A stretch of 64,000 nt of DNA, from the NCBI GenBank assembly GCA_003971905.1, contig RSEE01000047.1:248001-312000 (forward strand), given 5' to 3'. Below are positions 1,465-57,670 of the stretch, piece after piece. A model generated the notes under the pieces. The model saw nothing but the letters and a program-made list of their open reading frames with translations, was not told the DNA's origin and made no database searches. Made by a program: the position numbers and the translations under genes. This DNA comes from Moniliella sp. 'wahieum' (lineage: Eukaryota). Numbering within the stretch: position 1 is the stretch's first letter; each line of letters opens with the position of its first letter.

Positions 1465-1548
1465 TGATGCTTGAAGCTTGAAGCTTGACGTGTGACGTGT
1501 GACGCTTGATGCATGACGCTTGATGCATGATGCTTGATGCATGATGGT
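1465..1548. repeat. 12-unit 7-bp-period TGA-NNNN array
   Basis: TGA recurs exactly every 7 bp: TGATGCT TGAAGCT TGAAGCT TGACGTG TGACGTG TGACGCT TGATGCA TGACGCT TGATGCA TGATGCT TGATGCA TGATGGT. Confidence 0.9.
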
Positions 1549-1712
1549 TCCATGGCAAAGAGGAGGCAGGCAAGTCGTGCGACCCAGAAGCAGTCCTCTT
1601 GCTGACACTTCTGTCTGACGTAAGGCGCACATCACGTGACCGGGGCCGCACCTTGGCTGCTGCTTGCTCTGCCGACTGCGGGCGACCGTCTCTGCGGCCG
1701 TCATTGCGGACA

Positions 1713-2843
1713 ATGCAAGGCCAGCCCGGCCGGTACAGGCCGTGGCGAGTCGCGCGTCGGAGCAGCGGCTGCGATGCCGGCGGGTGTGGGAGGTGGTGTC
1801 GCATCCGGATCCAGCATCGGTGCTGGCACCACCAGCACCAGCGCCGCGCGGCTGCCCCCCGCTCTGCCGCTCGCTCGCAAACCCGCGCTCGCCGACGAGC
1901 TTGGGGGGAGCGCGAGCCAGGTGTTGTTCCCAAGGCAGCCGAGGTGCATCCGCCAAGCATGTGGGCGCCCGTCGCACCTGGCGTGTCCGATGGAGCTATG
2001 TAGGAACAAGCGAGGCCAACTACCCGTTCCTTCGCTCCTTGTGTCTCCGCAACATTTCTTCTCTCGCCCGAACCGCCGGCTGCGGACCTGTTGCTCCTTG
2101 CCGAGGAACAGAGGACCACCATCACCCATTTTAATCTGGCCCCCGATCCTGTTGTCATCCCCCGGGCGGGGGGGGACTGGACCACACTCTCGGACGGCAC
2201 GAATCATCCGAACCGCCTGTCGGTCGCCATGGGCGAGACCGAGTCGGACGTGCTCAACGTGCCTGGGATCGAAACGTTCATGTCCCCCTGGTTGACCATG
2301 ATCCGTTTTTGGATGATGTCCCTCACACCCAACTGGTGGATCCGCTCAGCATCTTTTGGTCGTCGTCCAACATTGTTCGGTCCATCATCAGCCCGCATAC
2401 GATCCAACGCGTCTGGAAGCACTGGTGGACGTACGCAACCACCCAACGGCAATCGTGGATGTGTAGGTGCCGCTTCCAGCTTGTTTTCGCTTCTTTCCCC
2501 CACTGACCTTGACCTTGTGATGATTAGATCGGGCGTGCACGAAGTGGGGGTCGTGGTGGGCTGTCTGCGCAAGCTGCAGCTATGGAACTTTGCTGGAATC
2601 TTGATTGAGTATCGTACGTTGCCGGGAGCCGAGCTCGGCCCGAACACGAACGGTTTATCGAAGTACGTCGTTCCTCTGAGTTGCATGGACTTGATCTACT
2701 TACTCATCCGCCCCCCCTCCTCCCCCCTCTCCTATCAGACGTTCGACATCGACTCGCTCACCTTACCTCCCGAACCGTTCATACCCAAGTGGTTGCTCTA
2801 CCGCCCCAAAGGCGCAGCCCGATCCCGGAGGAAGCCAACTTAG
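1713..2843 (+). CDS. Siw14/OCA-family (Y_phosphatase2) protein, probable pseudophosphatase (Oca4/Oca2-like); start uncertain
   Basis: Motifs PPSMWAPVAPGV..NYPFLRSLCLRNI, LEALVDVRNHPTAIVDV|SGVHEVGVVVGCLRKLQLWNFAGILIEYR, ERFIE|TFDID; introns 2463-2527 and 2663-2738; several frameshifts. Confidence 0.8.
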
Positions 2844-2877
2844 CAAATATGTAGCATGAATAACACTCTTCTCCTCC

Positions 2878-3635
2878 TCAGCGTCTCTTGTTCTTCTTTT
2901 TGGGTTTCTTGACAGGCTGGGGAGTTGGTTGCGGGGATGGAGGGAGAGAAGGGGCAGGGATAGGAGGCGTCCATTCAGACAGTCCTCGATCAGCGGCATC
3001 TTGTTGCCGTAGAGCAAGCACGCGGTCTTCCAAGTCAAATAGGTAACTGTCCTTGACATGGTCGCCCAAGTGCCGGACGGCTCGTCCGCAGTGCGCAGGA
3101 GATAATCGTCGTTCCGCCCACTTGGACCCGAGGTGTGAAGATGCGCTCAGCCAGCTCGTCCACCGGCTCGGGCCCAACAAAAGCTGGGTTGTCGGGCAAA
3201 CCGACATAGAAACACATTGTCCAACCTTTCTCCTCGCTTGCCCACACCGTTACCGTGTTTCGGTGTACCCGTTCTTCTCCCGCCAGTCCAAGTACCCTTT
3301 CACCGCCTCTGCATGAGCAGGGTCGATGGTAAAGCTGTACCCCCACACGATACCCCCTCGGGGGGCTTTCGCCACTCGCTCGTGCCAGTCTTTGGCGGTA
3401 ACAAGGGTTACCACCCGTCCGGGCCGTGCTGGGGTGCCTCTGTGGTCGATGGACGCTGAGCAAAGCGTCGCGCATAGCCTTTGATGAAGCCTGGCGTCGC
3501 ACCAATCACGTGGGGCGGGGGACGGAAGATAAGACTCCCATAGCCAAACACGTCAAACGAGCCTTCAGGTCGCTCGGTAAGGATGGGCAAGTCGGATGCA
3601 GGCACTGCTGGGGCAGCTAACAAGTCGGCATGCAT
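2878..3635 (-). CDS. ChaC-family glutathione-specific gamma-glutamylcyclotransferase domain (possibly the C-terminal part of a JJJ1 fusion)
   Basis: VFGYGSLIF, GFIKGYARRFAQ.S.DHRGTP..PGRVVTL, YLDWREKNGY (catalytic Glu), YVGLPDNPAFVGP, DSYLFDLE; frameshifted. Confidence 0.9.
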
Positions 3636-5139
3636 CTTTTCGTACTCGGGCGAATTCCATAGACTCTCCTCAGCCGAGCCCGGGGTAGGGCACCGTGTTG
3701 GAGGCCAGGTGAAGGCGTCACTTCTTCATCCTCCGAACCTTGAAGGGCAGCAGCAGCTGCTGCCGCTTTGCGTTGCGCTTTTGCCTTCTTCTTGGACTTT
3801 TTGCTCTGTCCCGGCGCTGGTGCTTCGTCATCAGAGACATCCCTGCATCTCGTGTGCCAAGATCTACCTCGTTCAACTGAACTTTTTCTCGTCTGCTTCA
3901 TCTCCCGCTGGAGGCGTCGAACTTGCTGATGTTCTTGCTGTGCTCATGGTTGCGCAAAGGCTCGGAGCGGAAGAACTTGTCACACGCAAAGCAGGTAAAC
4001 TCGTTTGGGTCGCCCCATTCAACCTGGTCCGCAGCACCTTCGCCAGCTTCGGCTTCAGCATCCGCCCCCTCTACCCATCGGGACCTTCGTCTCTATCAAT
4101 CGCCTCGCCATCCGACGAATCAAACTCGGAGTCGAGGAATGCGTCGTGCTCTTCCCATGCTTGGCGTTCAGCAGCATACTTGGCTGCTGCCTCTTGCCGC
4201 TCGCGCTGCCGAGCTGCCGCCTCCTCCCGCGCCTGCTGTTGCCGCTTTTGTTGGGCTGACGGCTCGGCGGCCATGCGTTTGGAGTACTCTTGGAACCGAG
4301 GATCGCGCTTGCGCACAAACGAAGCGAGAGCATGGACAGTGTCGTTATACTCCCGCCGCGCCCGATCACGCGCTTTTTTGTTGTCCTTCTCCATCAACCT
4401 CTTGAGCCGACGATCGGGGGGTCCGAGGCGCGGTACTGATCTGCCCAGCCAAAGCTCTTGCGGGTGTGGAAATTGAGCCAGGCATCGTAAAAGTCCTTGA
4501 CTTGGGGGCCGCTATGATCCCGGGGCAGTACATATGCGTCTTGAAGACCCCCAAAGAGAGGGTATTCGATTGGATCGCCATTGTCCTCTCCGGGGTAAGG
4601 AGTGGCAAGCGTTCCTCCTCTGCCAACCGCTCAAAGAGACGGCGATACGTCCCGTAGAAGCCGCTGCTCTCTGCCACTTCGGGTCGTAGCTGCGCTTCGG
4701 ACGCAAAGCTCGGATCAAAGAACTTCATCAGATGACGCACCGTCAATCCTGGGCCGGAAGGTTTGGCTGGAGCTTGCGGGTTTGCCTGTGCGCAGGTCAT
4801 GGAACGTAGCCGGGTCGACGTCCTCCTCGTCCTCGTCGGCAGCCAGGTCGTCGTTTTGTGGGTATCGTACCATGCACGTCCTGTTCGTCACTGAGGACCT
4901 CATATGCGCTTGGATCAAATGAAAGCGCCGATTGGCTTCTCCTCCTCGCCTCGGTTCTTGTCGGGGTGGTGGACAAGAGCCAGCTTGCGAAACGCCTTGC
5001 GCACCTCGGCCTCCGTCGCGGTCTCCTCGATGCCCAGCAGGGCATAGTAGTCCTTGGCACTGGGGCCCCCGGGCCACGCAGCATCGGGAACATCGCCTGG
5101 AGTTGCACCCCCTCGACTCGTCGACGCAGCAGCACCCAT
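3636..5139 (-). CDS. JJJ1: JJJ1/DNAJC21-type J-domain co-chaperone with C2H2 zinc finger
   Basis: [27 protein letters not shown] domain; [46 protein letters not shown] zinc finger near 3930-3995; several frameshifts. Confidence 0.88.

Positions 5140-8560: not shown

Positions 8561-8561
<1 letters not shown>

Positions 8562-8598
<37 letters not shown>
8562..8598 (+). repeat. poly-G homopolymer (~37 nt)
   Basis: Read directly; exact length unreliable in this assembly. Confidence 0.85.
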
Positions 8599-11335
8599 CT
8601 AGGAAGGACTCCCACTCCACGGGCCACTGCACGGCAGAAGATGTGAATGCACCGGTAGATCCGAGGCACCCGAAAGGAGTTCTGGGGGGAAAAGAACAAG
8701 CCAAACACCAAATACGACACAAGTAGGCTTTGGTGTGTGGTGACAGCTCGGCAGTAAGCGCAGACCGATGATAATCCACAAAACTGCACCAAGATGGGGA
8801 GAAGAAGGATGCTGATGCGACTGAGGGCACAGTACCTAGGCACGGGTGGGGAGTAGTGCGCGCAGAAACCAGCAGCCAGACAAGTATCACAGCGGGCAAG
8901 GCACCACTGCGATCAATAACAGCGGAGCGGTATGAGCCGGGGGATCGAGGAAGACGCGGGCACCTCAGACGAGTGCTGGACTGAGCGCTGGTGCCAGTAA
9001 TAGGGCTGTGATAGCTGCGACGGGGGGGCACAGCAGACCCAGAGGAAAGAAGAACTCAAGGGGTGGTAGAAGAAAAAAGACGCTGTCATCGTTCGCAAAA
9101 AGGTTATGGCCGCGTGCGAGCATGGTGGCAGAAGGCCGATTGAAGCTGCAAGCTTCACGTCAAGCTTCAAGCTTCAAGGCGGGGCGAGACAACACTGGGC
9201 TCGGCCATGGAATGTGGAAGCCTCTCACATCTCAGATCTCGCCGCATACGGCGGCGGACTGTGCCTGTACGTCAGCCGAACCGTTTAAAGCTTAAAAGCA
9301 TAAGTTCTACCGTCTCCTAGTAAGGCGTAACGCGTAACGGGTAACCTGTAACAGGCAGGTAACCCCAAAAACCCACACGGCCTCAGACCTCAGGCTGAGG
9401 CTTCAAGCTTCGGAGGCTGAGGCGCCGAGGCCTCGCTGTTGTTGAATGTGTTCCCCAACGTGCAAGTGAAGCATAACGGTAGGCCGTATGGCCCAAGCAG
9501 GCTCACCGGACCAAGCCATCTGGCCACCGGCCCACGCCCCGGCGTGGCTGGCAAAGCTTGTGTTAACTTCCACTGCGCATGCTCCACGCTGGACACAGAT
9601 CTAGCTGCTATAATTAAGTTGCGGCCCGAACAGTGCCTGCATCCTACTGCCTCAGGCCCCAGTGTCCTCGGCACAGCGCTCAGCCTCAGCGCTCAGCCTC
9701 CGCGCTTGCTGATTAACTAACTTTCGCCCACATTGCTGGGCTCCTGCGGGTGATGTGATGCGGTGTGGGGGCAGGAAAGGACAATAGTGCGAAGCGGCTA
9801 TGACGCGTGTGAAACGGGATGTGTGACAGCATTGTTGGTGCTAGATGCGAGGTGGAACCTGGTGGAACATGGAAGGTGCCACAGGGCTTGTGGACCTCGT
9901 TTGGGACACCGAACCAGCCAGCGCCACTACAGTCCTACTCCTAAGACGCGTCTAGTAACTGCTATAGTAGCGATGTTGCGGACCCAAGTGGGGCGGACGG
10001 GATGAGATTCTGGGATCTAAGAATGTATCGGCCGAACCGATTCAACATGTCCAGTCGATTGTCGATGGCGGATGGTCGGTGTTGGCTGGGCAACCACACT
10101 ACGAGTCTCGTTCGTTCTCAGATCTGAGTACACCGAAGGTTGGTTGAACGTTCAGTTGAACCATGAAGCTCTTGAGGCTTGAAGAGCTTGAAGCTTGAAG
10201 CTTGAACGCTGGCGCTGAACGCGTTGAACTCTTCAGTCTGAGTTCTGAGTTCTCTGACTCGTACAGGCGTACTTCGTACTTCTTAACCATTACGCATTAC
10301 TCAGCACTCCAGCCGCAACTACCAAAGCTTTGATGCCTAGGGCGGCCGCAGTGGGTGGGGGCGGGGGCGAGGAGGGCCAGGCGTGGGACAGTCATGGTGT
10401 ATGGTGGCCGGTGCCGGTGGTACTCGATACAACGTTGCGACGGTCCGCACAAGCTTCGCAATTTGCCCGCTCCACTGTCACCCATGTCACAACTCACTGT
10501 GGTGCATGATGTGTCACATGCTCAACCTTAGGCCTTAGAGCTTAGTCCCTAGTCCCTAGTCCCTGGCCACATGCAACGAACGTCACACGCGTCACATGTC
10601 ACATGTCACACTGGACAAGACATCACTGGCAGCACGTCCCTCAGTGCCGCATGCCGCCCCCAACATTCAAATTCAACCGGCCCCCTGTTCTTGAGCTAAA
10701 CCCAATTGTGTCGCAAACATGCCGTTTGAAATTGCAGAATACTGCGATGCTATATGAAACTTTGCATGCCGTGGCATCCTATAGCGTCGGTGGTTCGTCA
10801 CGCACCACGCGCCACCTGAGGCTGCCTCACATGCTCATGCTCGCTGAATCTCTCTGTTCATTAATCTTTGAACACGCTGAACGTACGTTCTGATCCTGAT
10901 CGCTCAGCCTGGTCGCTCAGCCTGAGGTCACCGGCCTCACCAGTCAGGGCCTGAGCCTCAGTGGAGCCCCACAAGATCCCAAAGCTCACCAGCGTCTCGC
11001 GTCACGCGTCGCGTCATCCATCATGCATCATCCATCATGCGCATCATGCATCATGCATCATGCATCGCATGTCACATGTCACAACGCCACAACTGAAAGT
11101 TGAAAGTTCAATGTGACACGTGACAAGTGACACCAGTGACTAGTGACTAGTGACATGCAAGTCAGGCCACATGTCACATGTCATTATGTGTACCGTGTGA
11201 ACAGCAGACCAGACCATAAGAGGGGTAAGGAAGTTTTGAGTGGAGCGAAGAGGGGGCGGGGGTTCACGACACAGGACGGAGAGAGGAGACAGGAGACGGG
11301 AGGCCACGAGCACACGCGGGCTGCCCGCTGCGCCC

Positions 11336-12751: not shown

Positions 12752-12777
12752 TTTACTCTGTTGCACTAGTCCTTGGT

Positions 12778-12996: not shown

Positions 12997-15900
12997 AGCG
13001 TTCTCCGGTGACCGACTCCTCGTCCTCACCCATCGATCGCTCCGCACGTACCCCCGTGCCTTGCCCAATTCTTACACTTTTCTCTTTGCGCTCCTCAACT
13101 GATTCAGAATCCCGTCTCACCTTTTTTCGGGTCATGCATCATTAATGTTTAACACCATTGATGACTCGCTCACACACATACGCGCCTTTACGCTGCCCTC
13201 ATTGGCCTGCTCATATACTATCCTGTATCACACTTCTATATAGCCACCCTCCCGCGAAGAGGGTCTTCGATGTTTGGTATTGAAGTACTTAAATTACAAG
13301 CTCTACGAAGCTTTAAGCTTGAAAGCGGGCCAACCCCTGTGTGATGACTATGACTGGGTAACATGGTAACATGGACAATAGTTAATCGACCGTCACCGTC
13401 ACCAGCGTCACTCCCCCTCAGGCCTCATTCTCGAGCCGCGATACGGTCTGAGATCTGTGAGTCTAAAAAGTACTAAGTACTGAGAGAACTGTTGCCACGT
13501 GTGTCAGTTTGAGTTGAATAATGAGACTGAAGAAGAGTATACTGTGAGCGCGTATGACTGAGTGCTGCTGAGTTCAGCATTCAATATTCACGGTATATCG
13601 CGATCAGCTCGATCATCTCGATCAATATGATCAATCGATTATCAAACACAGCATGTTATATTGCCTTTATACACACCACTGCACTTCTTCTATTGCTGAT
13701 GCATCAGTACATGGTGGTAATAATATATTAGTGACGCTGGAAAACAAGATGTTCCGACGGTGTGATTAGACCCCCTGACCGACTTGAGGCCGAGGCCATC
13801 CTGACCCATGTGTGCCTGACCCTTCTAGCTATCGATTCCAGGCCTGGTATGTCCGAGGAATCGTCAGATAGCGAGCACTATCGATTGCTCGCTCCGAGTG
13901 ATTGGCCGGCGATCGCAATGTGCAGAAAGAGGGAGAGAGTCTGAAAGCATCTCTATTAAGACACTACGCTCCCGGCTCCCGCCTCAGTGGAGGGGAGAGT
14001 CGAACCCTAAAGGAACGCCTGCTCTTGTGCTGCCAGAGCTTGAGTTCTGCTACGCCACCTCATTGACCATTTCCGATCATTAATATATGTTCAACGAGCG
14101 AGAGAGGGCCGCACAAGGGAACAGTCGGACGGTGATCGACACCGGCCTGTGCATGCAACTGTTGTCCGCAGCGCCAAAATCTGCCTGCTGCCAGATGCTG
14201 TCGGAGCTCGCGTTGCAAGAGAAGAAAAGTCAACGCTTGAGAATGAGTAGAAGCCCCCTCCTCACCCAGCATCACCTGTGCGGAAATGATCTACCGAGAC
14301 TCATAGCGCCAAGGGCATTATCAGTCGGGCGTTCGAAACCCAATATGATGTGTATTGTCCATTGGTGGTTGCTAATATAATGGGTTGTGGAGCCCATCGT
14401 GCTGATGGTCGAGTGTATATAGCATCGGTATCCAGAGAGGCCAACCCAAAGCTGGGAAAATTCAACATATTACTAGTATAGATTTCACCAACGCTTTCAA
14501 CACTGTGTGTGCGCCATCGCACTCTCTCGCCAATTGAACGCGCTCCACCGCTATACATGGCCCACACTTTTTCTTCATCGGAGGGCCAGTGAATCTATGG
14601 TACCTCTACCCAGCTTGTTGCTTCAGATAGAAACCCCAAAGGAGTCATCATGTGTGCGCGAATGTGTTGAACGGGAGGGGGGGGGGATCCAGAGGGGTTC
14701 GTTGTCTTTTAGGTACTTTAATTTGTGAGGACATAATGTTTGTCGCCTCTGTCGTCGCTTCAGGAGAAGGTGACGGAGAACTGTGAGGCAGAACATGCCT
14801 AAATGATGGCATTACCCTCCAGAAACACCTCAGTTATTGTGGCAATACTGTCCTCACCAACTTTTTGTCTCCTAATTTCCTCACCATATGCAGTGAGGGG
14901 GCGAGATGGACGATGTGTTGGCCACAATGTTGACGCTTTCCCATTTTTGAAGTTTCGACGGATTTGAGAGGGACGAGAATCCCAAGGGACATAGCAGGAG
15001 AGACTATCACTATTACATGTTCATGATCCTGACCCTTGGGAGGGAGGATGTGACTTCCCACTCCACTAGGACATTGAGCCCCTCTGCTGGGCATGCTGCG
15101 GGGCATGGTGTTTCGACTGTTGGAGCAACAAATCGGAAAGAACTTCAGAAGTACCAGGGACCCACTCAAGTGCCATTTTCGTTCTTCCCCTTGGTAAAGA
15201 CGACGCTTGGGATCTACAACACTCAGACAGTCAACAAGATGTTTCGCCACTGTGCACATGGTGTGGTTCATCCCTCACACACATGATGTCTACTACGCTC
15301 ATTCATGTGCAACACTCGCGCTACAATTGTGCTTTGGAAGCGAATGTCGGGGGTAGAGAGTGTCGAACTACTGGGGAGTCAACTGGTCCTTGGATTGTAT
15401 GGGCTGGTGCAACTTTACCACCGTCCATTGACCACAGCTTCTAATGACCAGATATGTTGGTCTTGCAGTTTCCTCTTCTGGGGCGAGGGTATTCACTGCC
15501 TTCTCTCGAAGTGCCGTTTCCTTCGGCGATGGGGGTCTCGATTGCCGTGCAACATTTTACAGTATCCAGCCAGTTTCCTTGCTGCAGATTCTGCTGTACG
15601 CCACCGTGTTGAGTTGTTACCGTGACAGAGGACTCGTCCCATATAATACCGTTTGATGCCGTATATATATAACTGCCTGTGCGTCTTCACCCGCGCCTCA
15701 TCCTTCTGTTGTGTGACGAAGACACTCTCCGCGGTATGCGCGATCCTAACAATCGCATCTTTATAGGATGTCGCTTGCCTGGGCTCCTTGAATGGCCTGG
15801 GCCACTCCGGGGCACTCGTTGGGGTTTATGAGCCTCAGAGAGGTGTTCGATGTCGATGAGGTCGATAGGTCGTGAGGCTGAGGGACCCAATGCGTGATAC

Positions 15901-24213: not shown

Positions 24214-24875
24214 GGGGAGCACTGAATGAACATTGCAATGGGACACGGAGTGAGCGCTGAGCATTGAACATTGAACATTGAACATGGGACAGTGAACGTT
24301 AAACACCAGACAGAGCGGCGCCGCACACGGCTGCTGGTCACGCGGTCACGTGGGTCCGATCTTGAAACACATCCCAGAGGGGCGCGCTGAGGCGCTGCAG
24401 CCTCAGCCGGGCGCGGAGGGCGGGGGCGCAGGCACGGGGGCAGTGGCGCGCCGGCTGCCCGCCCTGGGCGGCGACCCACTTTTGATGCGTTTGAACTGCA
24501 ATCCTAATCGGCAGCCGCCACCGCGCGCCCAGTCCGCAGCCTGCCGCAGCCCCCTAAGGCCTAAGCCCAGGAGCCTCCCCCACCACCACCACCAACCATG
24601 CATGCCGCTCCCCCACCGCCTGCCATCGCCCCCTCCGACGCCGAGTCCAGCCCGCTGGTGCCCGCCGCGTCCCCTCGCCCGAGTGGCCGCCCTCCTCACT
24701 CCTTTCCCCTCCAAGCCTCCGCCCCCACCCCGCCCCCGCCCGCTTCGCCCGCCCCCACTCGCCAGCGCGCCCACGCTCTTCCTCCCGCAACCCGTCCCGC
24801 TCACCCTCCCCGTCTCGCTCTCGCTCCACCTCGCCCACACCCTCCGCTTCGTCCGCCTTTGCCTCCGCCCGCTCC

Positions 24876-36961: not shown

Positions 36962-37863
36962 CTGCTTCACATGACTGGTCGCGCTGGGTTGATGGCGGTG
37001 ATGCATAGAGCAGCTCACTGTGGTGGGCAAAAACGTCTTCCGTTGCGGTGCGCGTTGTATATAAAAAGTTGACTGTCCATTCCCCACTCGTATACACAAA
37101 CCATTTGCATGTATATGGGCCAAGACAATGCACTTATAGTGGTCATAGTGAACGCTGGCCAGGCCGACTGCAGATATCCGGAGCCGGGACCAAGGCCAGG
37201 TTTTGTCACTTGTCAACGCCTGTCAACTAGTCAATGGAAGAGGCGCACTTCTACTTGCGCAGCTGGATGGGCATGCGAATGCGACCAGTCGTGGCTGTCC
37301 TGGTGCAGCGTGAATGTGAAATGCACTGGATAGACTGAACCATCGCGGAAGACCTCCCTGAGGAGACAGGCGTTGGGCAGTGTGCCTCCAGGAGAGAGGC
37401 GCGCGAGGCTGGGCGAGCTGCGAAGACCAGTTGGTAGCGCAGCGAGTGGGGATTGATGCAGATGATGGATGTAGGATGCATGATGCATGTTGATCGTTGA
37501 TCGATGTAAGCGGGTGGCGCGCTCACAGACACAGACGCCCTGCGGCGGGGCTGCACGGGCCGAGACGAGGCTGGGCGACGAGGCGGCGGCAGCCCACTGT
37601 TGGTGAGGACAATTGCTGAGACGCAGTGAGTACACTGAGGCGTGACGAGTGACTAGGACTGCCGGCTCCTGCCAGCCACTGCGGGCCACCCGCAGCTCCC
37701 ATCCCATCACAAGCCCTGTGCCTGAAATCTGGCCTCTGAGATCTGAACAGTGCCACCCGGCGCCTTCACCGCTTCACCCGTCTCGCACTCACCGCTCACC
37801 GGTTGGTTGTTCTCCATTTCTTCCACCCGCCTCTCCTCTCCTCTCCTCACTGCCTCCTCCGCC

Positions 37864-40511: not shown

Positions 40512-41536
40512 GGCTCGGGCCTGATGACCGATCCTCCGCAGGCACCGAGTGCCTGCTCAGCTCGATTTTGGACGCACTGGCCCATCTTTTCTTAACCCTT
40601 TGCATACGCGTGCTCCCTCTTTTTTTCCTTTCCCTTGACACTTGTCTTATTCTCGGCGGTACAAGCACAGTGACTAGTGACTTGGGACCCCAGCCGCTGT
40701 TCTCGTTCGCTGCTATACCATTGATCTTTTCACCGTTTTGCCATCCTCTCCTTTGGAGTTTACCGATGATCATAATCTACATGGGGTCTCCTCCTTGTCG
40801 TCTCATGGTCTTGCCATTGCGTCTGATGCGGACAAGGCATCTCTGTCCCTGATAAACGACTGGTTGCCGAGAGCCTGAAGTTGAACGCTGATGGATGGCG
40901 GTGGGAGGAGCGGGAGGACGTAGATGAGGGGGTAGGACGGGGAACAGATAACACATGTGAGGTATGAGAACTTTGATGAAAACTCAGTTGGGACACACAA
41001 GAGCCTACCTGTATTAACTCGAAGGCCCTGAGGCCTTTAGGTTCCCAGCCCTGCACACTTGCGCCTCAACGCCTCAATGTGAGGCTTCAGCGCCTCAGCC
41101 TCAGCCAATGCTCAGCCCCTCAGCGCCTTCAGCCAGCGGATGCCCAGCAGGCTGAGCGTGTATCCACCTGAGCTCAGCCTCATCGACCACCGTTGAGGCT
41201 GAGGCGCTCAGGCCACGAGCGGTGCCGGTGAGATTGAGAGCAATACAGTTGGTGCCAGAATGGCGTCGATGCCTGCCGAGCCCCCGCGAAGGGCAGCAGA
41301 GGGCCAGTGCAGCCTAGTGCTGGTCCAGACAAGTGCCCCCCAACACTGCGCCCGTGCGACACTTCGGCTGGCTTCCCCGGCTTCGTGCGCCTTCCCACCA
41401 TCACGCATCGAACACCATGCATCATCCATCCGGCTACGCACACCTGCTCCACACTGGCCAGATCCGTGTGTCGTTGCGCCGTCGCTTGAGCGCCTCGACG
41501 CCTCACGCTCGAGCCCCGCGCATGGGCCACTCTCTC

Positions 41537-43594: not shown

Positions 43595-44845
43595 GGGTGT
43601 TCGCGCCGGCCCTCCAACATTCACGGACCATTCTTTCCCCTGCCTTCAATTCTTCCCCAACTTGCATGACCCCCCTTCCTCCATGTACAAAATACACGCA
43701 CGTGATTTGAGAGATGCGTTGGTATACAGAAAAGGTGCTATGGTGAGGCCGATGAAGTACATGATAGACGTGATGCAGCAAGGCGCGGATGGTGGGAGAG
43801 GATGAAAAGTGTGGAGGGCAGAGAGGGAGACGACGGACATGATAACGATGAGAAGGGAACGAAGACACGAAATCTGCCGCGCCCCGCACGCAGTATAACT
43901 GACTGTGAGTATACTGCAGTCACTAGTCACTACTAGTCCGGAGTGCCGAATGCAATAGGCAAACCGTATGCCGAAGCTGCTGAAACAACGTCTTGATCCA
44001 CCCGGCCGCGGAAACTCAGTTCAACAGGTTTTGGGGGCGCACCCGCCCATAAGCGGACATAATACAGGCTGGTATAAATATAAGCGCACCAAGAGAAGCT
44101 GCACCAACAGAGGCGTCAGCACGGAAGAAATTGTCGCCGCAGCAGGACCTCGGCGAACGGGCCTGCTCGGTCAAACGGCGATTGCCGGACGTCGGCGGCA
44201 ATGGGCGGATGACTGTCACATGTCGTGGGGGGTCCCGAGGTGGGAACCTCCTGCAGTTTTGGGGTATAAACCTTTGGACAGGTCTCAATCGGTGTGTCTC
44301 GTAAGTTAGGTCCTGCTCCAGATCCTGGTTGAACGTTCAACGTTGATACGTTCATGATTGGTATAGACAGAATGCGGGACACTTCCCAGAGAGGTAAAGA
44401 CTAATGCACAGAAGCCCTTGCTCTCCAAGGTGCTGCGGAGAGTCGGGCGCAGCAGGAAAGGCTCTGACAAGACTGGTCGCAATGGACACAAAGCATCGTA
44501 CCGTTAAGCCCATGCGACCATGGCGGGCCGCGGGTGATATCCGCAGCATGGATAAGATGTCGACTGGCTCTCTCTCGCTAGTCTAACGTCTAACAGAGGA
44601 CTGACGCGTGTTGGGCTAAGAGATGTGTCTACTATATGCGGGGCTCAGCGTCCGGAGATAATCGATAACCGGAGCACCCCGTAACAATGACCGATGATGA
44701 GATGTATGATGCTGCATGAAGTTCCGCGCTAAATCAGCTTGATCCCTCTGCCTGAGCACCAAGCACCAAATAGCAAGGTAGTATAAAGGGTTGAGAGCCA
44801 CACTCGTCAACCCAAGTCTCACCCCCACCATCCCTTACTGCTATC

Positions 44846-46081: not shown

Positions 46082-46092
46082 GTTTTTGCTAT

Positions 46093-46273: not shown

Positions 46274-47820
46274 GCTATCTTGGCTTTTTTTGTTACTTTT
46301 GGCGTCCGGGGGGGGGGGGCTACGGGCAACAGCAGCACACAGATGAGCGAGTCTGGTGGGCGCAGCGTTTCTTTGTCCCGGCGTTAAGCTCTGTGAACGA
46401 TATACATGCAACAGTAGGATTGGATACGGAGATAAAGGTGGTCAACGTATGAGCACAGGCAGAACCATCTCCAACGAGACTCTTCTCAGTCGGCTAGGCT
46501 GGCGCTGATGTTGGTTCCTCAATGCAATGTCTGTGCTGATGTGGCCAAAAAACAACTATAACAGATCATTTCGCACGCAGTTTCCCTCTTAGCTGGCAAA
46601 GTAGTATTCTCTCACGTCATTAACATGTTGCCATGTCAAAGAATATAACGGTTCTGGGGTACACCAGCTGATGTATGTGGTCCTGCCGTTCTTATCAACA
46701 CGGCACGCACAAGTCCACCTTTTGCATCATCATATAATATGGACACGTGTGCATGGAGATGTTTATCGCGGTGTACTAAATACCTATTCACTTTCACAAT
46801 GAATCCGCGTGAGGATTGACGGTCGGACCTCGTATGGAGCTCCGTAGTGATGACCTTTTCGACCCGTGTACAACCCAAAAGGCACTATCTATCTCCGCTA
46901 TAGCGCTTGAAGCTTGAACACGAGAGAAAAACAGCAAAGAATCCAAGGCTGGGAGCCAGTATGAGAACTACTCCATATTAGGAACCCGGACCATATGCAA
47001 AGGTCGGGCAGGAACTCCGCGGAGTGGTGTGTTTACATGAAAAGCTGAAAGGCACGTCATGCACGCAGAGCTGGAGAGATACCAGTACAATATAATGGAG
47101 ATTTTGTTTGCCATATAGGATCAATTTTCTTGGTCATTAGTACTTGTGGAGAGGATTGACATGGACCAAGTTAAAGCCGACAATGAGAGACTCTCCGCCT
47201 GCTGCGATGTGTTCCGTGGGGACGACGGACAGATTGTTTGATGGCAAAGGATGAAGCAACAGGGACATAACCTCGTTACAGAAGAGAGAGAGATAATGTA
47301 ACAGAGATAAAATGCATATAGTACCTGAGTTATCCGCAGGGCAGTTGCCACTATACCGCAGTGTGCCAGGCTACTGTTCGTGATATAGTCGGACTCGGTG
47401 GAGTTATCAAACGTCAGGCCGTCAGCAGTGGAAAGAGAGAAGAACATTCATACAGCAGAGCAGTCAATATATTGCCCTTTCTCAAATGTGGTGGCGTGCG
47501 CCGTTCACTACATTCACTCTGAGATACTCGCACAAATGGTGTATGTGTAGTGTGTGTGATGCATGATACACAAATTAATGAGATGGTGTCATTGCCATAT
47601 TTTCCTCGAATCTCTGTTTGCGGTGGCCGCCCCCCTTTTATTTTGGAGAAGAGGTCAAGATAATCGGAGTTAGGACAGGCAAGGGTATTATCATGCGCTT
47701 GTGGCCCTACTAGCATAGTAGTATCTACTTCTATACTCACAATCATCTCTATAAAAGCACAGATCCTGCCTGACCGTGGCTACTCCACACACCGCCCACG
47801 CCACTCCATTCTCCGCCATC

Positions 47821-52141: not shown

Positions 52142-53020
52142 GATCTGTGTGATACGTGTGATCGGGATGATCGGGATGATCGGGATGATCGATGATTAAT
52201 GATTGATGCACAGCGGCCATGCGCCTACGAAGAATGATTAAATTTTAAGGAGTGCGATGTGCTGGCTGCCGCCGTGTCCCAGTCGCCGCCACGCGCCCCC
52301 CGCCTCTGCATCAGCCATTCCGCACCGCCAGCACCACGCCAGCCAACGCCCCTAGCCGAGTGCAGCTTGTGGTGCTCCCTGCAGTCTGCTCCAGGCGCCG
52401 CCGTGCCGAGTGCCTCGTGACTGTGACATGTGTGTCCTGTGCCATGTGACATGTGACACATGCATGATGCAGGCACCAACTGACGACGTACTGACGCTCA
52501 GGCGCTGCTTCAAGCTTCAGCCTGCGCTTCACTAGTAGCTGACTGCCTCACCAGTGCCGGCCCTGAGGCCGTCCCGAGGGCTGTGGCTAAGCACTTGTGG
52601 GGGTGTAGACAAAACGCCGAGCATCAACGCCATCCAAATAAAAGGTCGAGGGTTGCATTGGGTGCTGTGGACGATCGTGGACACTGCCAAGCTGGTGGCG
52701 CTGGCTACGTGCCCAACCTGAGCCCATGCACTCATGGCGTATCCCGCTGCAGAGAACGTCTAGTATGATACGGCGCTTCAATAACATCAAATCGTTTCCA
52801 GTCCGTGACGCGTTAATCAAGTGATTCTATACATACACAGCTGCCGATATCCATCAGCCATCAAGCTTCAAGCTTCCAGCTTCCAGCTTCAAGCACCGAT
52901 GGGCCAATGGAAGGGGCAGCAGCAGCCAAGGCCAACCCGCCGGGCCTAGGCAGACAATGGTCGCCCCCCCTGTGGTGCATGATGCAGATATACAGGATCC
53001 GAAGCATATGCACTTCCCCC

Positions 53021-54914
53021 TTAGGCATCCAACTTGGCCACCGGAGATTCGGCCGACGAAGGCGAGACAGGGTCCGAAAGGCCGTCCTTGTCGTCCGAGA
53101 CAGGATAGTCCTCCCCAAGAGTGTCACGCGGCACCTCTTCCTCACCAAGGTCGACAGCGAGCGTCTGCTCCATGTTCAACTTGGCGTCCGTCAGGAAGAT
53201 GGTCGCCAGAATGGGCACCACCGAGACAACGATCGCGATAATGAGCATAATGTGCCAGTACTTGGCATACGCCCCAATGAGCGCAGAGCGATTGGGTGTG
53301 CCCATGGCCCAACCCGGGTCCGAGATGACGTTAAAGGGGTTGCCCGCAGCCGCGGCCACCTCGGTGGGAGTCAGACTGGGTGCCAGCTTGGCGAGTTGAG
53401 CAGGCAGGACAGTCTTCTGGACCGCACCTGCTACGGCCGAGCCAATCGCACCACCCACTTCCGTCATGAGCAAGACGAAGGCGGTCACCATAGCCACATC
53501 GGCATGCGGGACCAAAACCTGCGCCGCCACTTGCAGTTGAACGCCCAAAATGCCACCGCCAAAGCCCTGGATGATCTGGGGAATGACAAGCTGAGCCGTA
53601 GTCGATCCTTCTCCGCGGTACCGGATCATCAAGCCAATGCCCACCATACGGACGCAGGCCCCAGCGAACATTTGCCACTTGTAGCGCATGGTGTAGGCCG
53701 ATAGGATACCGCCCATAATACCAAATACAGTCAAGGACAACGATTGGCAGTTGGAGAAGTAGTTTGCTTGCTGCGCGTTCCATCCTTTCACGACCATAGC
53801 CCACAGGTATGCGTTGGTCCACGAACAGTAGAATGCGAAGAAGTCGGTAACACCAATGATCATGGGAACCATCACTGTTATGGAGCAAAGACAGATCAGT
53901 AGCTGTCAAACGAAACAGAATGAAAACACGCACCGTCCTTGTTAGTCACATATCGCTGACGGATCAATGGCTCCAATGCACAAAACTTCTCCCACAACAC
54001 CAGAAGTCCCAAGCACGCGGGCCCAACCAAAATCATCACGATCGAGTGGGCTTGGCGCCACGTTTTCTCGCTACCCCCCGCCAAATCGATGGCCAGGAGA
54101 ATCAACAACCATCCAGCCACGACAAGAAGGATACCAGGGATATCGAGGGCGCGGAGAAAGGGGACCCATCCTACCCAACGTTCCCGCAACGAGGGTGTCA
54201 AGCCATTGCGCCGTGCGCTCCACTGCGACATGATCAAAATAGAAAGGATGGGAATAGCCACAACAGGAACAATGATGCTCATCATTCCGGCCCCCCAGCG
54301 CCATCCTCCTGTGGACGACTTGCTGCAGGTCATGGTGGGGCAGATGGCATTTACAATGCGAGGAACAACCGCAAAGTTAATGACATATGGCAACGATACC
54401 AGACCGATCGCCATACCGCGGAAGCGGTAGGTACCCAGTCGGCAATCACGATTTGCTGCATGATCTGAACGCCCGTGTTGCCTGTGGCGTAGATGGCTGT
54501 GCCAGCCCAGATGGCGCCCATGTTTTGGCTGGCCGCCACAATGATAAACCCAACAGTGTAAAAGCCAACCGAGAGACAGTACGCTTGGGCCCGCCCAAAG
54601 ACGTCAGCCAACCGCGCAATCGGTAGCTTCATGACGCCAATCAAGACTTGCTGCACAACAGAAAGGGCCGTGTAGGAGGACAGGTAGGTGCCAAAGTACG
54701 AGGTGGCAGCCGTGATCCAGGCATAGTAGGACTGGTTGTCCATCCCGTTGACATAGCTCATGAGGCCAATGCCAATCCAGGCGCCATAGAGGAGGTATCG
54801 GTTGCGGTGCGCATAGGCGCGGGCAGCCTCGGCCTTGGACACACCGCCCTGAGCGATGGATACCATTGCGGCAGCGTCCGAACCGGTCTGCTGCTTGTGG
54901 GGAAGAGAGAGCAT
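53021..54914 (-). CDS. siderophore-iron MFS transporter (ARN/SIT/MirB family)
   Basis: KLPIARLADVFGR, QQIVIAD, WRWGAGMMSII, LDIPG, QIIQGFGGG, QVAAQVLVPHADVAMVTA, EVGGAIGSAVAGA; intron ~53875-53933; one frameshift near 54420. Confidence 0.92.
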
Positions 54915-55257
54915 GGAAGCGGGGCGGCTCAGTGGGAGTAAAGGGATGGCTTCCGGGTCGCCGCGGTCGAAGGAAGAAGGGCGGAGGCGGGGGGGTGGTG
55001 GGACGAACCCATTGAGTGGGGCGGAGGGATGCTCCTTTTAGGCAGTGGCGTGTGGCGGCGGGCAAACGCGTCCAGGTCCCCGCGGGAGGTTGGCCGCGTA
55101 CAGCAGAATTTGGGGGGCAGGCACAGGCGTCAAGCTTCAGGCGCTGGGCCTCGAGAGGCTGACGACGCCGGATGGCGCTGAGCCATTTTTGCATACTCCC
55201 GCAGAGCCGCCCCCGCGCCAAGGCGCTGCTCTACAATTTCATTGCTCACAGCCTCTT

Positions 55258-55267
55258 CTTATCTGAT
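55258..55267 (-). promoter_or_regulatory. iron-responsive GATA-repressor site (ATCWGATAA)
   Basis: ATCAGATAAG on the minus strand, ~350 bp upstream of the siderophore transporter. Confidence 0.65.
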
Positions 55268-56999
55268 CGGACCGGTGCATCCGTCGCACTCAGCAACATT
55301 GAATTTTGCCCACCAAATTCCATTTCTTCGCGTCCGCACCGAGCGAGCAGGACGCCCACAATGCATGAGCGAGACGCGTGATGTCGCACACTCTCTCATT
55401 CGGACGTGCGACATGTGACGCGTGACGTGCCCAGACCCAGGCGCCCGAGCGGAGGCGCGCAGACCGGAGACCGTTGCGCTGTCTGCGGTGCCTGTGCTGT
55501 GCCTGCTGTGCCTGCTGTGCCTGCTGCGCCTGGCTGGTCTGGTATGCTATACCAGGCATCGACCGTCTGCGCTGCTCTTTTCTGCCGCCTGGAATGATCG
55601 ATGCTATGATGCAGAGGATGCTAGAGTGAAATGCTCTCAAACTCACACCCTAGTAGTTATTGATGCATGATGAGATCTGACAAGACGCAAAAAAAATATT
55701 CTCCGCGTTTGACCCCTTGGGCCTAGGGCCGCTGTGTGGTCTCTCCGGCCTCGGCCCCCCACAGACCACAGACCTCCAGTCCCTCCTCCCCCAGGCTACC
55801 CCTCCGCACAAGTCACTCAGGGACCTCACGTCTCAGCCACAGCCTCGACACCTCACGCATCGCGCGCCACGCCTCTCACAAAGTCACACCAGTCACAGAC
55901 GTATGGCAGGGGGTGCGTTCCAGGCCCCCTCTCGCCCAATCCAACTGTCGCCACAGTCCGTACTTTGGTGAGAAGTGAGTTTAATTACAGAAGCGTATTC
56001 TTATGGGCGCCCCTCTGCTATGCTCTTTTTGGGATCACCTGTCACATGTCACATGTCACAGCATACAATGACTGTTCTGTTGTAAAAACATGAAGAAGTT
56101 CATTTGCTTCGCTATAAACAGAACCTTTGGGACGCTGTGCACTATGCTACGGCACGGTCATCCCTTACGCGTGTTCCTTTGTATTCCATTTCGCTAGCGA
56201 TAGTTAGTACACCCTACCCTATATATGGGACTGAAATGCGACATGCACTCATGAAGCTTCAAAAGGTTCTACTTCAACCGTTGACCGTGTACACCAACAA
56301 CGTTCAACCTCAGACCTTAGGCCATCAGTGCAACAGTGTTGCCTCAGGCCCTTTTGGCAAAGTATCGTCCATCGCACCGTCCCCTCCTACTTTCCGGTAA
56401 CCAGGAATATAACCAGCAGGGGCATCGGAGAGAGATACAAATAATGTGAGACGCTTTCGTGACAGATGCGCCCTGGGGCCTCGACCTCCTTTTTGAGTAT
56501 AGTGCCCCAGAAGCCTCAGGCCGAGGCCTCATGTGACGTGTGAGTGTGACATATGCATAAGGAATGGGTGCAATCTGATCTCGATCTCATATGCATCATG
56601 CACCAGCATCATCAATCTTCATATTCAACGTCAACGGTGGGGTATGAATGTAATGCACTTTTCAGCCAGTTGTTTCAGGCGAATGGCCTCCTGTAGCATG
56701 AGCCCCCTGGACGCAACGGCCCCAATGCTGCACAGTGCCTGAACGTTGAACCTCCTCAAGCTGAGGCCCTGACGCCCTGAGGTGTTGAGCCGGGTGGCTT
56801 GTGCTTTGGCCAATGTCCCTTCAGTTCCACGTCAGGCCTAGGAGTTCCGCTGTTTTCTCCTGTTTTTTCCTTGTCCCGCAGCTTAGCCCCTGATGGCGAC
56901 TCGCTGCTTGGTCTTCCTCTGTAGGCTTTACTGGCTGCCGCACCACCACCACCAGTGCGATTGCATCACTCTTGAGGACCATCTGGACTACAGATCTCA

Positions 57000-57670
57000 T
57001 CATGAATCATGAGGCTTTAAGCTTTAACGTCCTTAACCCTTAAGGCCGGGCCTTAGGCCTTAGGTAGGCCTTAACGTCCGGAACTTCTGAATCGATCTGA
57101 ATACGTTCAGTTGTACGTTGAGATGGTGACAGCGTCTCAACGCACACAGGCCTCCGACCTCCGGGACTCAGGTACTCACTCAGGTACTCAGGCCTGAGCG
57201 CCTGAGCGCGCCCTGAGCGCCTGAGCGCGCCCTGAGCGCTCAGCTGAGCCCTCAGTAGTCCAGACTCCGGCCTCAAGTTGACCTCAGGCACTCAGAACTC
57301 AGTGCACGCAGTACAGACCATTAATCTAATCGATCGCATGTTAGCGGCTTCGCGCAAAGGCTTAGCATTTATAAATTTAACTCCCCAATAGGTACCTCGC
57401 CAAGGCTCGTCACGCGTCACGCGTCACACGTCACACGTCACGCGTCACGCGTCACACGTCACTAGTGACTAGTCACTAGCACTGCGACCCCGCTCACCGG
57501 TCACATGGTCACATGCATCATGCATCACATGCACAGGCCACAGGACATCGATCATCACCGGCCCATCACCGGTCAGCGTCAGGGCCAGCGTTTGACCCGC
57601 GAGCGCATTCTCGAGGATCAATGATCGATGATCGATGATTAAGACGATGATCGATGACCGGTGACCGGTA
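57000..57670. repeat. dense mosaic of short palindrome-based tandem arrays
   Basis: Successive blocks of AGGCCT, AGTACT-like, AGCGC, ACGCGT-C (57408-57460), ACTAGT, ATGCAT, ATCGAT-G, ACCGGT-G units. Confidence 0.85.

What the first reader, a model, noticed from the sequence alone, without database searches (positions are those of the whole stretch)
1465..57670. Window-wide intergenic grammar of 7-bp-period arrays built from many different hexameric palindromes
Seen: most intergenic regions hold short arrays of a 6-bp A-xyy'x'-T palindrome plus one linker base, usually G or C, so each junction reads TGA or TCA. The palindrome varies while the rule holds: AAGCTT (1472, ~9150-9178, ~10185-10205, ~52862), ACATGT (~10590, ~11068, ~56042), ATGCAT (~11040-11065), ACGCGT (57408-57460), ACTAGT (~11139, ~43920, ~57461), AACGTT (~44330), ATCGAT (~57622), ACCGGT (~57657), AGCGCT, AGGCCT, AGTACT (~13469). 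Arrays switch core mid-run without losing phase (1465-1548 has TGA every 7 bp for 12 units) and flip orientation around TGA-NNNN-TCA dyads. They are almost absent from coding sequence. Inference: slippage alone does not explain one junction rule shared by a dozen unrelated cores. Candidates are a spacer-tolerant TGA-N4-TCA/TGA binding factor or chromatin/methylation code marking intergenic DNA, or a template-switching process that seeds arrays at palindromes.
Basis: partly seen in the sequence, partly recalled or inferred. Interest (0 to 1): 0.85.

Follow-up and report, generated by a model that had tools for sequence, protein, structure and literature searches.

The report
Palindromic seven-base repeats between fungal genes
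The DNA between the genes of this smut-related fungus is dotted with short runs of a 7-base unit made of a 6-base palindrome that starts with A and ends with T plus one spare base; the rule is real, is far beyond chance, was found described in no paper searched here, and its cause is still open.

Summary
The window is nuclear DNA of a basidiomycete nearest to Ustilaginomycotina. Of 53 exact tandem repeats of period 7, 26 have a unit made of a 6-bp palindrome plus one base (10.4% expected), and 25 of those 26 are of the A-N4-T class. TGA-pal4-TGA occurs 29 times against 0.87 expected and TCA-pal4-TCA 30 against 0.90. None of the 44 such loci lies in 16,666 nt of Pfam-supported ORFs.

Two refinements. 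The "G or C linker" reflects composition: TAA and TTA junctions are enriched by the same factor, so the rule is T-N-A. Self-complementary units are enriched only at period 7.

Two Agaricomycete metagenome contigs show the same grammar at low density, and paralogous copies there differ by exact multiples of 7 bp. The arrays therefore look like fast-evolving minisatellites.

Nearest-neighbour hairpin energies do not favour A....T over the other palindrome classes, so the unit rule is unexplained. A sequence-specific factor remains possible.

Nothing in six literature searches describes this. No reads or whole genome were available.

The parts
1463..1546 (.). 12-unit period-7 array with TGA in every unit. 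Cores are AAGCTT and ATGCAT, plus hybrid units (TGACGTG, CTTGATG).
9158..9178 (.). AAGCTT+C, 3 units
9320..9352 (.). ACGCGT+A (GTAACGC), 4.7 units. The last two bases drift between units.
10156..10206 (.). AAGCTT+G, 3.1 exact units preceded by degenerate units
10586..10610 (.). ACATGT+C, 3.6 units
11012..11083 (.). ATGCAT+C array that passes in phase into ACATGT+C
11113..11183 (.). GTGACAC/GTGACAA units, then ACTAGT+G x2.9, then ACATGT+C x2.3
13468..13481 (.). AGTACT+A, 2 units
24251..24305 (.). TGAGCGC followed by TGAACAT units (imperfect palindrome), 41 nt after the 2OG-Fe(II) oxygenase ORF
37461..37503 (.). ATGCAT+G units, then GTTGATC x2.1
40669..40682 (.). ACTAGT+G, 2 units
43918..43932 (.). 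ACTAGT+C, 2.1 units
44328..44354 (.). AACGTT units with a linker flip (TGAACGTTCAACGTTGA)
46905..46918 (.). AAGCTT+G, 2 units
52184..52208 (.). ATCGAT+G then ATTAAT+G, following a 9-bp repeat (TGATCGGGA x3.7)
52431..52458 (.). ACATGT+G, 4 units with variants
52859..52894 (.). AAGCTT+C array with variant units AGCTTCC
56035..56060 (.). ACATGT+C, 3.7 units
56999..57064 (.). Three short arrays: TCATGA+A (the only palindromic unit that is not A....T), AAGCTT+T and AGGCCT+T
57406..57483 (.). 10.6-unit array. ACGCGT+C alternates with ACACGT+C, then switches in phase to ACTAGT with one linker flip.
57512..57527 (.). ATGCAT+C, 2.3 units
57611..57669 (.). ATCGAT+G units passing into ACCGGT+G
60874..60895 (.). 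ACGCGT+G, 3.1 units

Best explanation
The arrays are young, fast-turning-over heptamer minisatellites of non-coding DNA.

- **Growth and loss.** They grow and shrink by whole 7-bp units, through replication slippage or unequal exchange. This includes blocks of 2 to 4 units.
- **Coding sequence.** They are removed from coding sequence because 7 is not a multiple of 3.
- **The unit rule.** The duplication step is strongly sequence-dependent. It works almost only on units that are a perfect 6-bp palindrome A-xyy'x'-T plus one base of any kind.
- **Simplest mechanism (inferred).** A slipped or free 3' strand of such an array folds back on itself. This gives 5-bp stems closed by a T-N-A triloop, then 6-bp blocks separated by N-N mismatches. 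The fold stabilises the out-of-register intermediate or primes on itself. [11 protein letters not shown] template switching keeps units palindromic and sometimes flips the linker (TGA to TCA).

**Shown:** the sequence rule and its statistics; the absence from Pfam-supported ORFs; unit-wise indels between paralogous copies in another basidiomycete.

**Inferred:** the hairpin or self-priming step.

**Unexplained:** why only the A....T class and only period 7.
For: - **Head-to-tail arrays with higher-order patterns.** Periods of 14, 23 and 30 overlie the period-7 arrays. At 57408-57462 the units run G,G,A,A,G,G,A at the variable position.
- **Direct repeats dominate.** 59 same-linker pairs against 13 flips.
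- **No coding overlap.** 0 of 44 loci lie in 16,666 nt of Pfam-supported ORFs. By my arithmetic this has a probability of about 2e-6 if placement were uniform.
- **Mostly arrays, not single sites.** After masking 3,436 nt of period-7 stretches, isolated palindromes are only weakly enriched: A....T 178 vs 158.6, odd palindromes with TGA centre 81 vs 60.8.
- **Unit-wise change in paralogs.** L079 is Lactarius-like (helicase ORF 85% identical) and holds copies of a ~5.5-kb segment that are 79-90% identical over most shared blocks. Between copies: CTGAGAT has 3 vs 2 units with an exact 7-nt gap. GGTAACC has 2.9 units vs a single diverged copy. TGAAGCT-type units number 3.6, 2 and 7. One array of 3.4 units stands where the other copy reads TGAAGTGTGAA.
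- **Predicted folds.** They are 5-bp stems with 3-nt loops. Four of the 7 arrays folded have z at or below -1.98 (-2.65, -4.40, -1.98, -3.24).
- **Not a dispersed element.** The arrays are not part of a longer dispersed repeat.
Against: - **No thermodynamic preference.** Mean folding energy of (P6+N)x3 is -2.96 kcal/mol for A....T, -3.10 for T....A, -5.29 for C....G and -5.40 for G....C. Yet 25 of 26 palindromic units are A....T.
- **Only period 7.** Self-complementary units are enriched only at period 7 (26 vs 5.5). They are not enriched at periods 4, 5, 6, 8 or 9.
- **Imperfect palindromes are not enriched.** 20 of 52 units have two of three pairs, against 57.8% of random heptamers (about 30 of 52), and 8 of 52 keep the A..T outer pair against 10.9% expected.
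- **Weak folds in some arrays.** Three of the 7 folded arrays have z of +0.42, -0.02 and -1.66.
- **T, N and A vary less than the core.** Mismatches per position within arrays are 2, 2, 5 against 8, 12, 9, 11. A neutral repeat would not show this, although two arrays supply 22 of the 49 mismatches.
- **Indirect evidence.** Unit-wise indels were seen only in another fungus, not in this genome.
Confidence: 0.45

Rival explanations
1. The arrays are binding platforms for a protein that reads T-N-A or A-N4-T at 7-bp spacing. This could be a transcription factor, or a chromatin or architectural protein. It would mark promoters or gene boundaries, and selection would keep the rule while individual arrays turn over.
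For: - T, N and A vary less between units than the four core bases: 2, 2, 5 against 8, 12, 9, 11 mismatches.
- The class is strictly A....T, and folding energy does not explain this.
- Cores change in phase: a different A....T palindrome stands at +7 in 6 cases against 0.42 expected.
- The same rule appears in two Agaricomycete contigs. That would fit a conserved reader.
- The densest cluster (9158-11183) lies upstream of a Gti1/Pac2 regulator gene.
Against: - A protein cannot require a core to be self-complementary while accepting any sequence for it. At least 11 different cores are used.
- The linker orientation is mixed within one intergenic region.
- A 7-bp spacing puts successive sites on different faces of the helix.
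- Paralogous arrays in L079 differ in copy number or are absent.
- Known odd-palindromic fungal sites (AP-1, Yap) have A-S-T at the centre, not T-S-A. This point is recalled, not tested.
- There are no expression, accessibility or conservation data.
Confidence: 0.2
2. An enzyme makes the duplications. A dimeric nuclease, transposase or recombinase would cut with a 7-nt stagger centred on T-N-A, or nick at the centres of adjacent A-N4-T palindromes. Fill-in and ligation would then add one unit per event, much as a target-site duplication is made.
For: - The period is strictly 7 and the class is specific.
- The dyad axis passes through the linker, as in the odd-palindromic targets of some transposases. 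Examples recalled, not tested: Tn10 NGCTNAGCN, and the 7-bp duplications of Galileo-type P elements.
- Perfect palindromes are enriched but imperfect ones are not.
Against: - No pair of inverted repeats of 10 nt or more within 40-4,000 bp is flanked by a direct repeat longer than 5 nt (311 pairs examined).
- No ORF of 110 aa or more gave a transposase family at E up to 1e-4 (219 ORFs scanned).
- A half-site preference would not make the core palindromic for many different cores.
- Arrays of up to 12 units, with higher-order blocks, look like slippage.
- Only 64 kb of the genome could be searched.
Confidence: 0.2
3. The arrays are an artefact of sequencing or assembly.
For: The assembly carries indel errors at homopolymers. 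The Hsp70 gene is split into three frames at a GGG run and at a C run. There is a 37-nt G run at 8562-8598. No reads could be laid.
Against: - The arrays have few homopolymers, at least 11 different cores, and lie only outside Pfam-supported ORFs.
- The same grammar occurs in independent metagenome assemblies of other basidiomycetes.
- Homopolymer miscalls do not create phased heptamers.
Confidence: 0.03

Closest known systems
Eukaryotic micro- and minisatellites that change by replication slippage, including hairpin-forming repeats
   Same: - Head-to-tail units and variant units spread in blocks.
- Restricted to non-coding DNA.
- Length changes in whole units between homologous copies (in another fungus).
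   Different: - Half of the period-7 arrays obey one symmetry rule: an A-N4-T palindrome plus one base.
- The excess is limited to one period and one of four palindrome classes.
- Folding energy does not predict that class.
Over-represented intergenic heptamer repeats of bacteria. These include the Xanthomonas and Nostoc G-rich heptamers (PMC4692102, abstract seen in the listing) and the cases noted earlier in this scan.
   Same: Period 7, an intergenic position, many short arrays per genome, and occasional inverted arrangement.
   Different: - Those are bacterial and mostly use one or a few non-palindromic units per genome.
- In the 106 metagenome loci not classed as fungal-like, only 7 of 134 neighbouring heptamer arrays had an A....T palindromic unit.
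- In viral contigs, ACATGT+S (3 loci) was no commoner than TGTACA+S (5 loci).
Palindrome-dependent self-priming elongation of short repeats by DNA polymerases in vitro (the 'hairpin elongation' model). Recalled from memory; no paper was read here.
   Same: A preference for palindromic or nearly palindromic units, and growth in whole units.
   Different: It is an in-vitro reaction at high temperature. No A....T or period-7 rule is known to me for it. Nothing here shows that it happens in vivo.
Odd-palindromic transposon target duplications (Tn10 9 bp; Galileo/P-type 7 bp). Recalled, not tested.
   Same: The dyad axis passes through a central base, and the duplication has a fixed odd length.
   Different: No element with such duplications was found in the window. 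The arrays reach 12 units.

Membership tests
Slippage-type micro/minisatellite | Head-to-tail copies of one short unit | tested here: met
   By my count 40 of 129 TRF rows have period 7. There are 53 exact arrays of at least 2 copies.
Slippage-type micro/minisatellite | Homologous loci differ in length by whole units | tested here: inconclusive
   Met in the Lactarius-like contig L079: gaps of 7 nt and about 13 nt between paralogs. It could not be tested for the window's own genome, because no relatives, reads or genome were available.
Slippage-type micro/minisatellite | Unit choice follows composition or general structural propensity | tested here: not met
   25 of 26 palindromic units are A....T. 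The enrichment is found only at period 7. Folding energy is no better for A....T.
Bacterial-type intergenic heptamer repeats | Prokaryotic genome with one or a few unit families | tested here: not met
   The window is fungal. It uses at least 11 palindromic cores.
Transposon footprints or target-site duplications | An element with terminal inverted repeats flanked by 7-bp direct repeats, or a transposase gene | tested here: not met
   None of 311 inverted-repeat pairs has a flanking direct repeat longer than 5 nt. No ORF of 110 aa or more gave a transposase family at E up to 1e-4 (219 ORFs scanned). Only this window was searched.
MITE or dispersed palindromic element | Copies of one longer sequence at many sites | tested here: not met
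   Self-BLAST finds only array-to-array matches and one 185-bp repeat.
Cluster of transcription-factor sites | A specific protein binds, and the sites are conserved among relatives | not testable with these tools
   No orthologous loci and no binding data. Paralogs in L079 are not conserved in copy number.

The most novel reading that the evidence does not exclude
Basidiomycete fungi may have a conserved, sequence-specific machinery that writes or reads tandem A-N4(palindromic)-T+N heptamers in non-coding DNA. It could be a nuclease or recombinase that adds 7-bp units at T-N-A dyads, or a protein that recognises the T-N-A-looped hairpin or cruciform. This exobasidiomycete-like genome would be an extreme case, with about 5% of the window in such arrays.
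Probability: 0.3. Interest if true: 0.8.

Novelty: new variant of a known kind. Interest (0 to 1): 0.6.

Why it matters
If the rule holds genome-wide, and in other basidiomycetes, it is a clean sequence signature of a mutational or protein-driven process that has not been described.

- It separates two palindrome classes, A....T and T....A, that have nearly the same predicted folding energy. That gives a sharp handle for experiments.
- Practically, the arrays would be abundant and highly variable markers for strain typing.
- They are a hazard for primer design and assembly.
- They are a cheap classifier of non-coding DNA in these genomes.

If the pattern is only a local oddity of slippage, it is a curiosity.

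Tried and rejected
- **Whole genome.** None is held for this window.
- **Public sequencing runs.** None was listed for 52300-58300, and no RNA holder was listed.
- **Wider sampling of the fungal contigs.** None of the five records asked for (L004, L026, L071, L079, L118) is held.
- **Relatives among fetched loci.** blastn and tblastx of the window against all 121 metagenome loci gave only array-to-array matches.
- **Universal A....T rule.** Rejected. In viral contigs: AAGCTT+S 58 loci, GAATTC+S 26, CTTAAG+S 6, TTCGAA+S 2, ACATGT+S 3, TGTACA+S 5, non-palindromic AGACTT+S 10. AAGCTT heptamers are a common family of their own in environmental DNA (more than 121 metagenome loci). That does not carry over to other cores.
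- **General 7-bp slippage bias.** Not supported. The 26 non-palindromic period-7 arrays are, by my rough estimate of about 7 expected, no more enriched than period-8 or period-9 repeats.
- **Hairpin stability as the reason for A....T.** Rejected.
- **Transposon with 7-bp target duplication in the window.** Not found.
- **Three-frame stop cassettes.** Every T-N-A junction is a stop codon on one strand, and period 7 visits all three frames. Reading coordinates by eye, the stop-bearing strand does not follow the neighbouring gene's strand. The idea also does not explain palindromy. I kept it as a remark only.
- **Coding map.** A map from codon usage and 3-base periodicity was too noisy to use. 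I used Pfam-supported ORFs instead.
- **Rfam.** Only one tRNA.
- **Literature.** Six searches found nothing on such arrays in fungi: heptanucleotide or heptamer repeats with fungi, Ustilaginomycotina, Basidiomycota, Exobasidiomycetes, and six literal array strings.
- **Earlier notes of this scan.** Five look-ups gave only bacterial heptamer repeats.

Full report
**What the window is.** The long ORFs carry eukaryotic domains: DHHC, RSN1_7TM, protein kinase, Hsp70, Gti1/Pac2 and F-box. The Rieske plus pyridine-nucleotide oxidoreductase ORF at 58258-60408 (-) has its best named relatives in Ustilaginomycotina. These are Acaromyces at 52%, and Exobasidium, Tilletia, Parajaminaea and Sympodiomycopsis at about 50%. 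Agaricomycetes follow at 41-47%. One unnamed record is 85% identical. The window is therefore nuclear DNA of a basidiomycete near the Exobasidiomycetes, with no close named relative. G+C is 49-64% along the window.

**Assembly quality.** The Hsp70 gene is read in three frames, with breaks at a GGG run and at a C run. There is also a 37-nt G run. No whole genome is held.

- By my count 40 of the 129 rows from Tandem Repeats Finder have period 7.
- Base identity at lag 7 is 0.278, against 0.262 at lag 8 and 0.261 at lag 10.
- Exact repeats of at least two copies number 61 at period 6, 53 at period 7 and 10 at period 8.
- Of the 53 period-7 units, 26 contain a 6-bp palindrome, against 10.4% of all heptamers. 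Of those 26, 25 begin with A and end with T. The exception is TCATGA+A.
- Against 100 dinucleotide-preserving shuffles, A....T hexamer palindromes number 275 against 175 expected. C....G (274 vs 305), G....C (292 vs 312) and T....A (176 vs 184) are not enriched.
- The same A....T palindrome recurs 7 bp downstream 20 times (0.04 expected). A different one does so 6 times (0.42 expected). Smaller excesses appear at 14 and 21 bp. The other three classes give 0, 0 and 1.
- TGA-pal4-TGA occurs 29 times (0.87 expected) and TCA-pal4-TCA 30 times (0.90). The two flips occur 8 times (0.94) and 5 times (0.91).
- Seven-base odd palindromes centred on TCA or TGA number 120 and 123, against 67 expected each. 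No other centre stands out apart from a slight excess of TAA.

**Position.** The 72 TSA-pal4-TSA sites form 44 loci. None lies in the 16,666 nt of ORFs that have a Pfam match. With 26% of the window in such ORFs, uniform placement would give zero with a probability of about 2e-6 (my arithmetic). The loci cluster at 9.1-11.9, 13.1-13.7, 19.2-20.0, 43.9-44.4, 46.9-47.6, 52.2-52.9, 55.1-57.7 and 60.8-60.9 kb, plus 1.46-1.55 kb. Long tracts hold few or none: 1545-9160 has none, and 24261-37736 has one site, at 28418. I could not build reliable gene models, so "most intergenic regions" is not verified. Period-7 stretches cover 3,436 nt, or 5.4% of the window.

**Refinements of the rule.**
- *The linker.* TAA-pal4-TAA (5 vs 0.12) and TTA-pal4-TTA (5 vs 0.11) are enriched about 40-fold. 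TGA and TCA are enriched about 33-fold. The preference for G or C therefore reflects how common these triplets are. The junction rule is T-N-A.
- *Arrays, not single sites.* With the period-7 stretches masked, isolated A....T palindromes (178 vs 158.6) and TSA-centred odd palindromes (75 vs 63.8 and 81 vs 60.8) are only weakly enriched.
- *Only period 7.* Self-complementary units are enriched at period 7 (26 vs 5.5 expected). They are not enriched at periods 4, 5, 6, 8 or 9.
- *Only perfect palindromes.* Units with one mismatched pair are not enriched: 20 of 52, against 57.8% of random heptamers. Eight of 52 keep the A..T outer pair, against 10.9% expected.
- *The rest is ordinary.* By a rough expectation of about 7, the 26 non-palindromic period-7 arrays are no more enriched than period-8 or period-9 repeats. 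The special object is the perfect A-N4-T+N heptamer, not period 7 as such.
- *Variation within arrays.* Mismatches to the array consensus fall mostly on the four core positions (8, 12, 9, 11) and less on T, N and A (2, 2, 5). Two arrays supply 22 of these 49 mismatches, and the changes are not independent events.

**What it is not.**
- The arrays are not parts of a longer dispersed element. Self-comparison finds only array-to-array matches and one 185-bp repeat.
- None of 311 inverted-repeat pairs has a flanking direct repeat longer than 5 nt.
- No ORF of 110 aa or more gave a transposase family at E up to 1e-4.
- Rfam finds only one tRNA.
- An artefact is unlikely. The known errors of this assembly are homopolymer indels. 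The arrays are poor in homopolymers, use at least 11 cores and avoid Pfam-supported ORFs. The same grammar also occurs in independent assemblies (next paragraphs).

**Related sequences: environmental DNA in general.** Most are not like the window. Their G+C runs from 29% to 66%, and the neighbouring heptamer arrays are variants such as AGCTTGC or GCTTGCA. In the 106 loci that I did not class as fungal-like (398 kb), 7 of 134 other exact period-7 arrays have an A....T palindromic unit.

**Related sequences: fungal-like contigs.** I classed 15 loci (about 100 kb) as fungal-like. For 13 of them this rests only on contig-name series and G+C. In these 15 loci, 6 of 14 other exact period-7 arrays have an A....T palindromic unit. 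Two loci were checked.
- L079 carries a helicase ORF 85% identical to a Lactarius protein.
- L047 carries a kinase ORF whose 34 hits are all Agaricomycetes or unnamed, and an Aspzincin_M35 match.
- L047 reads AAGCTTC x3 running in phase into ATCGATT x2.7.
- In L079, 5 of 7 exact period-7 arrays are A....T palindromic: AAGCTT+G three times, AGATCT+G and ACCGGT+A. One of these is the array that retrieved the locus, and two are paralogous copies.

These loci were chosen because they hold an AAGCTT array, and the density is far lower than in the window. This is a hint of a wider basidiomycete trait, not a demonstration.

**Controls in viral contigs.** There is no universal A....T rule. AAGCTT+S is found in 58 loci, GAATTC+S in 26, CTTAAG+S in 6, TTCGAA+S in 2, ACATGT+S in 3, TGTACA+S in 5 and the scrambled AGACTT+S in 10.

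**Dynamics.** L079 holds copies of a ~5.5-kb segment that are 79-90% identical over most shared blocks. This allows a comparison of homologous arrays.
- The CTGAGAT array has three units in one copy and two in the other, with an exact 7-nt gap.
- GGTAACC has 2.9 units in one copy and a single, diverged copy in the other.
- The TGAAGCT-type array has 3.6, 2 and 7 units in three copies. A further array of 3.4 units stands where the other copy reads TGAAGTGTGAA.

Arrays of this kind are therefore born, grow and shrink in whole units at a divergence of roughly 10-20%. In the window itself, blocks of variant units (G,G,A,A,G,G,A at 57408-57462) and overlying periods of 14, 23 and 30 fit the same process. 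I have no such comparison for the window's own genome.

**Mechanism.** I take the arrays to be fast-evolving minisatellites that change by unit-wise slippage or unequal exchange, with a duplication step that depends strongly on sequence.

The simplest physical reason for palindromic units is fold-back of a slipped or free strand. Predicted folds are 5-bp stems with T-N-A triloops. Four of the 7 arrays folded do better than shuffles (z -2.0 to -4.4). Three do not (z +0.42, -0.02, -1.66).

This account is incomplete. Nearest-neighbour energies of all 256 possible (P6+N)x3 arrays give A....T no advantage: -2.96 kcal/mol, against -3.10 for T....A and about -5.3 for C....G and G....C. It also does not explain why other periods lack the effect.

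A protein cannot demand self-complementarity of an arbitrary core. Palindromy therefore points to a nucleic-acid step such as fold-back, template switching or a cruciform. The T-N-A requirement points to something sequence-specific: a loop or hinge preference not captured by the energy model, a nuclease, or a binding protein. I put 0.45 on hairpin-assisted slippage, 0.2 on protein-binding arrays, 0.2 on enzyme-made 7-bp duplications and 0.03 on an artefact.

**A property noted but not adopted.** Every T-N-A junction is a stop codon on one strand (TGA or TAA, or their complements). Period 7 therefore visits all three frames. The strand carrying the stops does not follow neighbouring genes, as far as I could judge by eye.

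**Comparison with what is known.** The nearest known kinds are eukaryotic minisatellites and the over-represented intergenic heptamer repeats of bacteria. For the latter I saw the abstract of PMC4692102 in the listing, and earlier notes of this scan. Neither has the A-N4-T symmetry rule. In-vitro hairpin elongation of palindromic repeats and odd-palindromic transposon targets are recalled analogies only.

Six literature searches found no description of such arrays in fungi. The library lacks most subscription journals, so this is not proof of absence.

**Verdict.** This is a real, strong and apparently undescribed sequence rule. I class it as a new variant of a known kind (tandem repeats). The mechanism is open, and interest is moderate to high.

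Noticed in passing
window 41597-43591 (+): The Hsp70 gene is read in three overlapping frames. The breaks fall at a GGG run (about 42340) and a C run (about 43050). These look like homopolymer indel errors of the assembly, or a very young pseudogene.
   Followed up: partly
window 8562-8598: A run of 37 G. Thirty homopolymer runs of 7 nt or more occur in the window, mostly G or C.
   Followed up: no
window 46000-46081 (+), 46095-46273 and 11338-11519: A tRNA-Gln(CTG) gene is followed directly by a 185-bp sequence. That sequence recurs at 91% identity at 11338-11519, where no tRNA lies beside it. It may be a small dispersed element.
   Followed up: partly
window 12525-12987: An 88-bp segment is duplicated at 140-bp spacing (12525-12611 and 12664-12751, 98% identical). 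Next to it is a 58-bp tandem repeat of 3.6 copies (12768-12974).
   Followed up: no
whole window: Several hexamer palindromes occur at half the expected number or less: TCCGGA 8 vs 18.9, TCGCGA 7 vs 15.9, TTGCAA 7 vs 16.9, GAATTC 5 vs 14.5.
   Followed up: no
metagenome loci L001-L121; viral loci L122-L179: Heptamer arrays of AAGCTT+G/C are common in environmental DNA: more than 121 metagenome loci and 58 viral-contig loci. Palindromes of the same composition give 2-26 viral loci. The arrays usually sit beside arrays of related units such as AGCTTGC or GCTTGCA. This looks like a widespread repeat family of its own, mostly not fungal.
   Followed up: partly
L079 1-12020: A Lactarius-like contig holds at least two and a half tandem copies (~5.5 kb each, 79-90% identical over most shared blocks) of a segment that encodes a MOV10/SDE3-type RNA helicase.
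   Followed up: partly
window 49708-51881 (-): The protein kinase gene is spread over two overlapping ORFs in different frames (49708-50955 and 50388-51881). This may be an intron or another indel.
   Followed up: no
window 9380-9430 and 57190-57255: Runs of CCTCAGG, CCTGAGG and GCTGAGC-type odd palindromes occur with shifting phase and 8-, 11-, 12- and 19-bp periods. They are related in style to the heptamer arrays but are not period 7.
   Followed up: no
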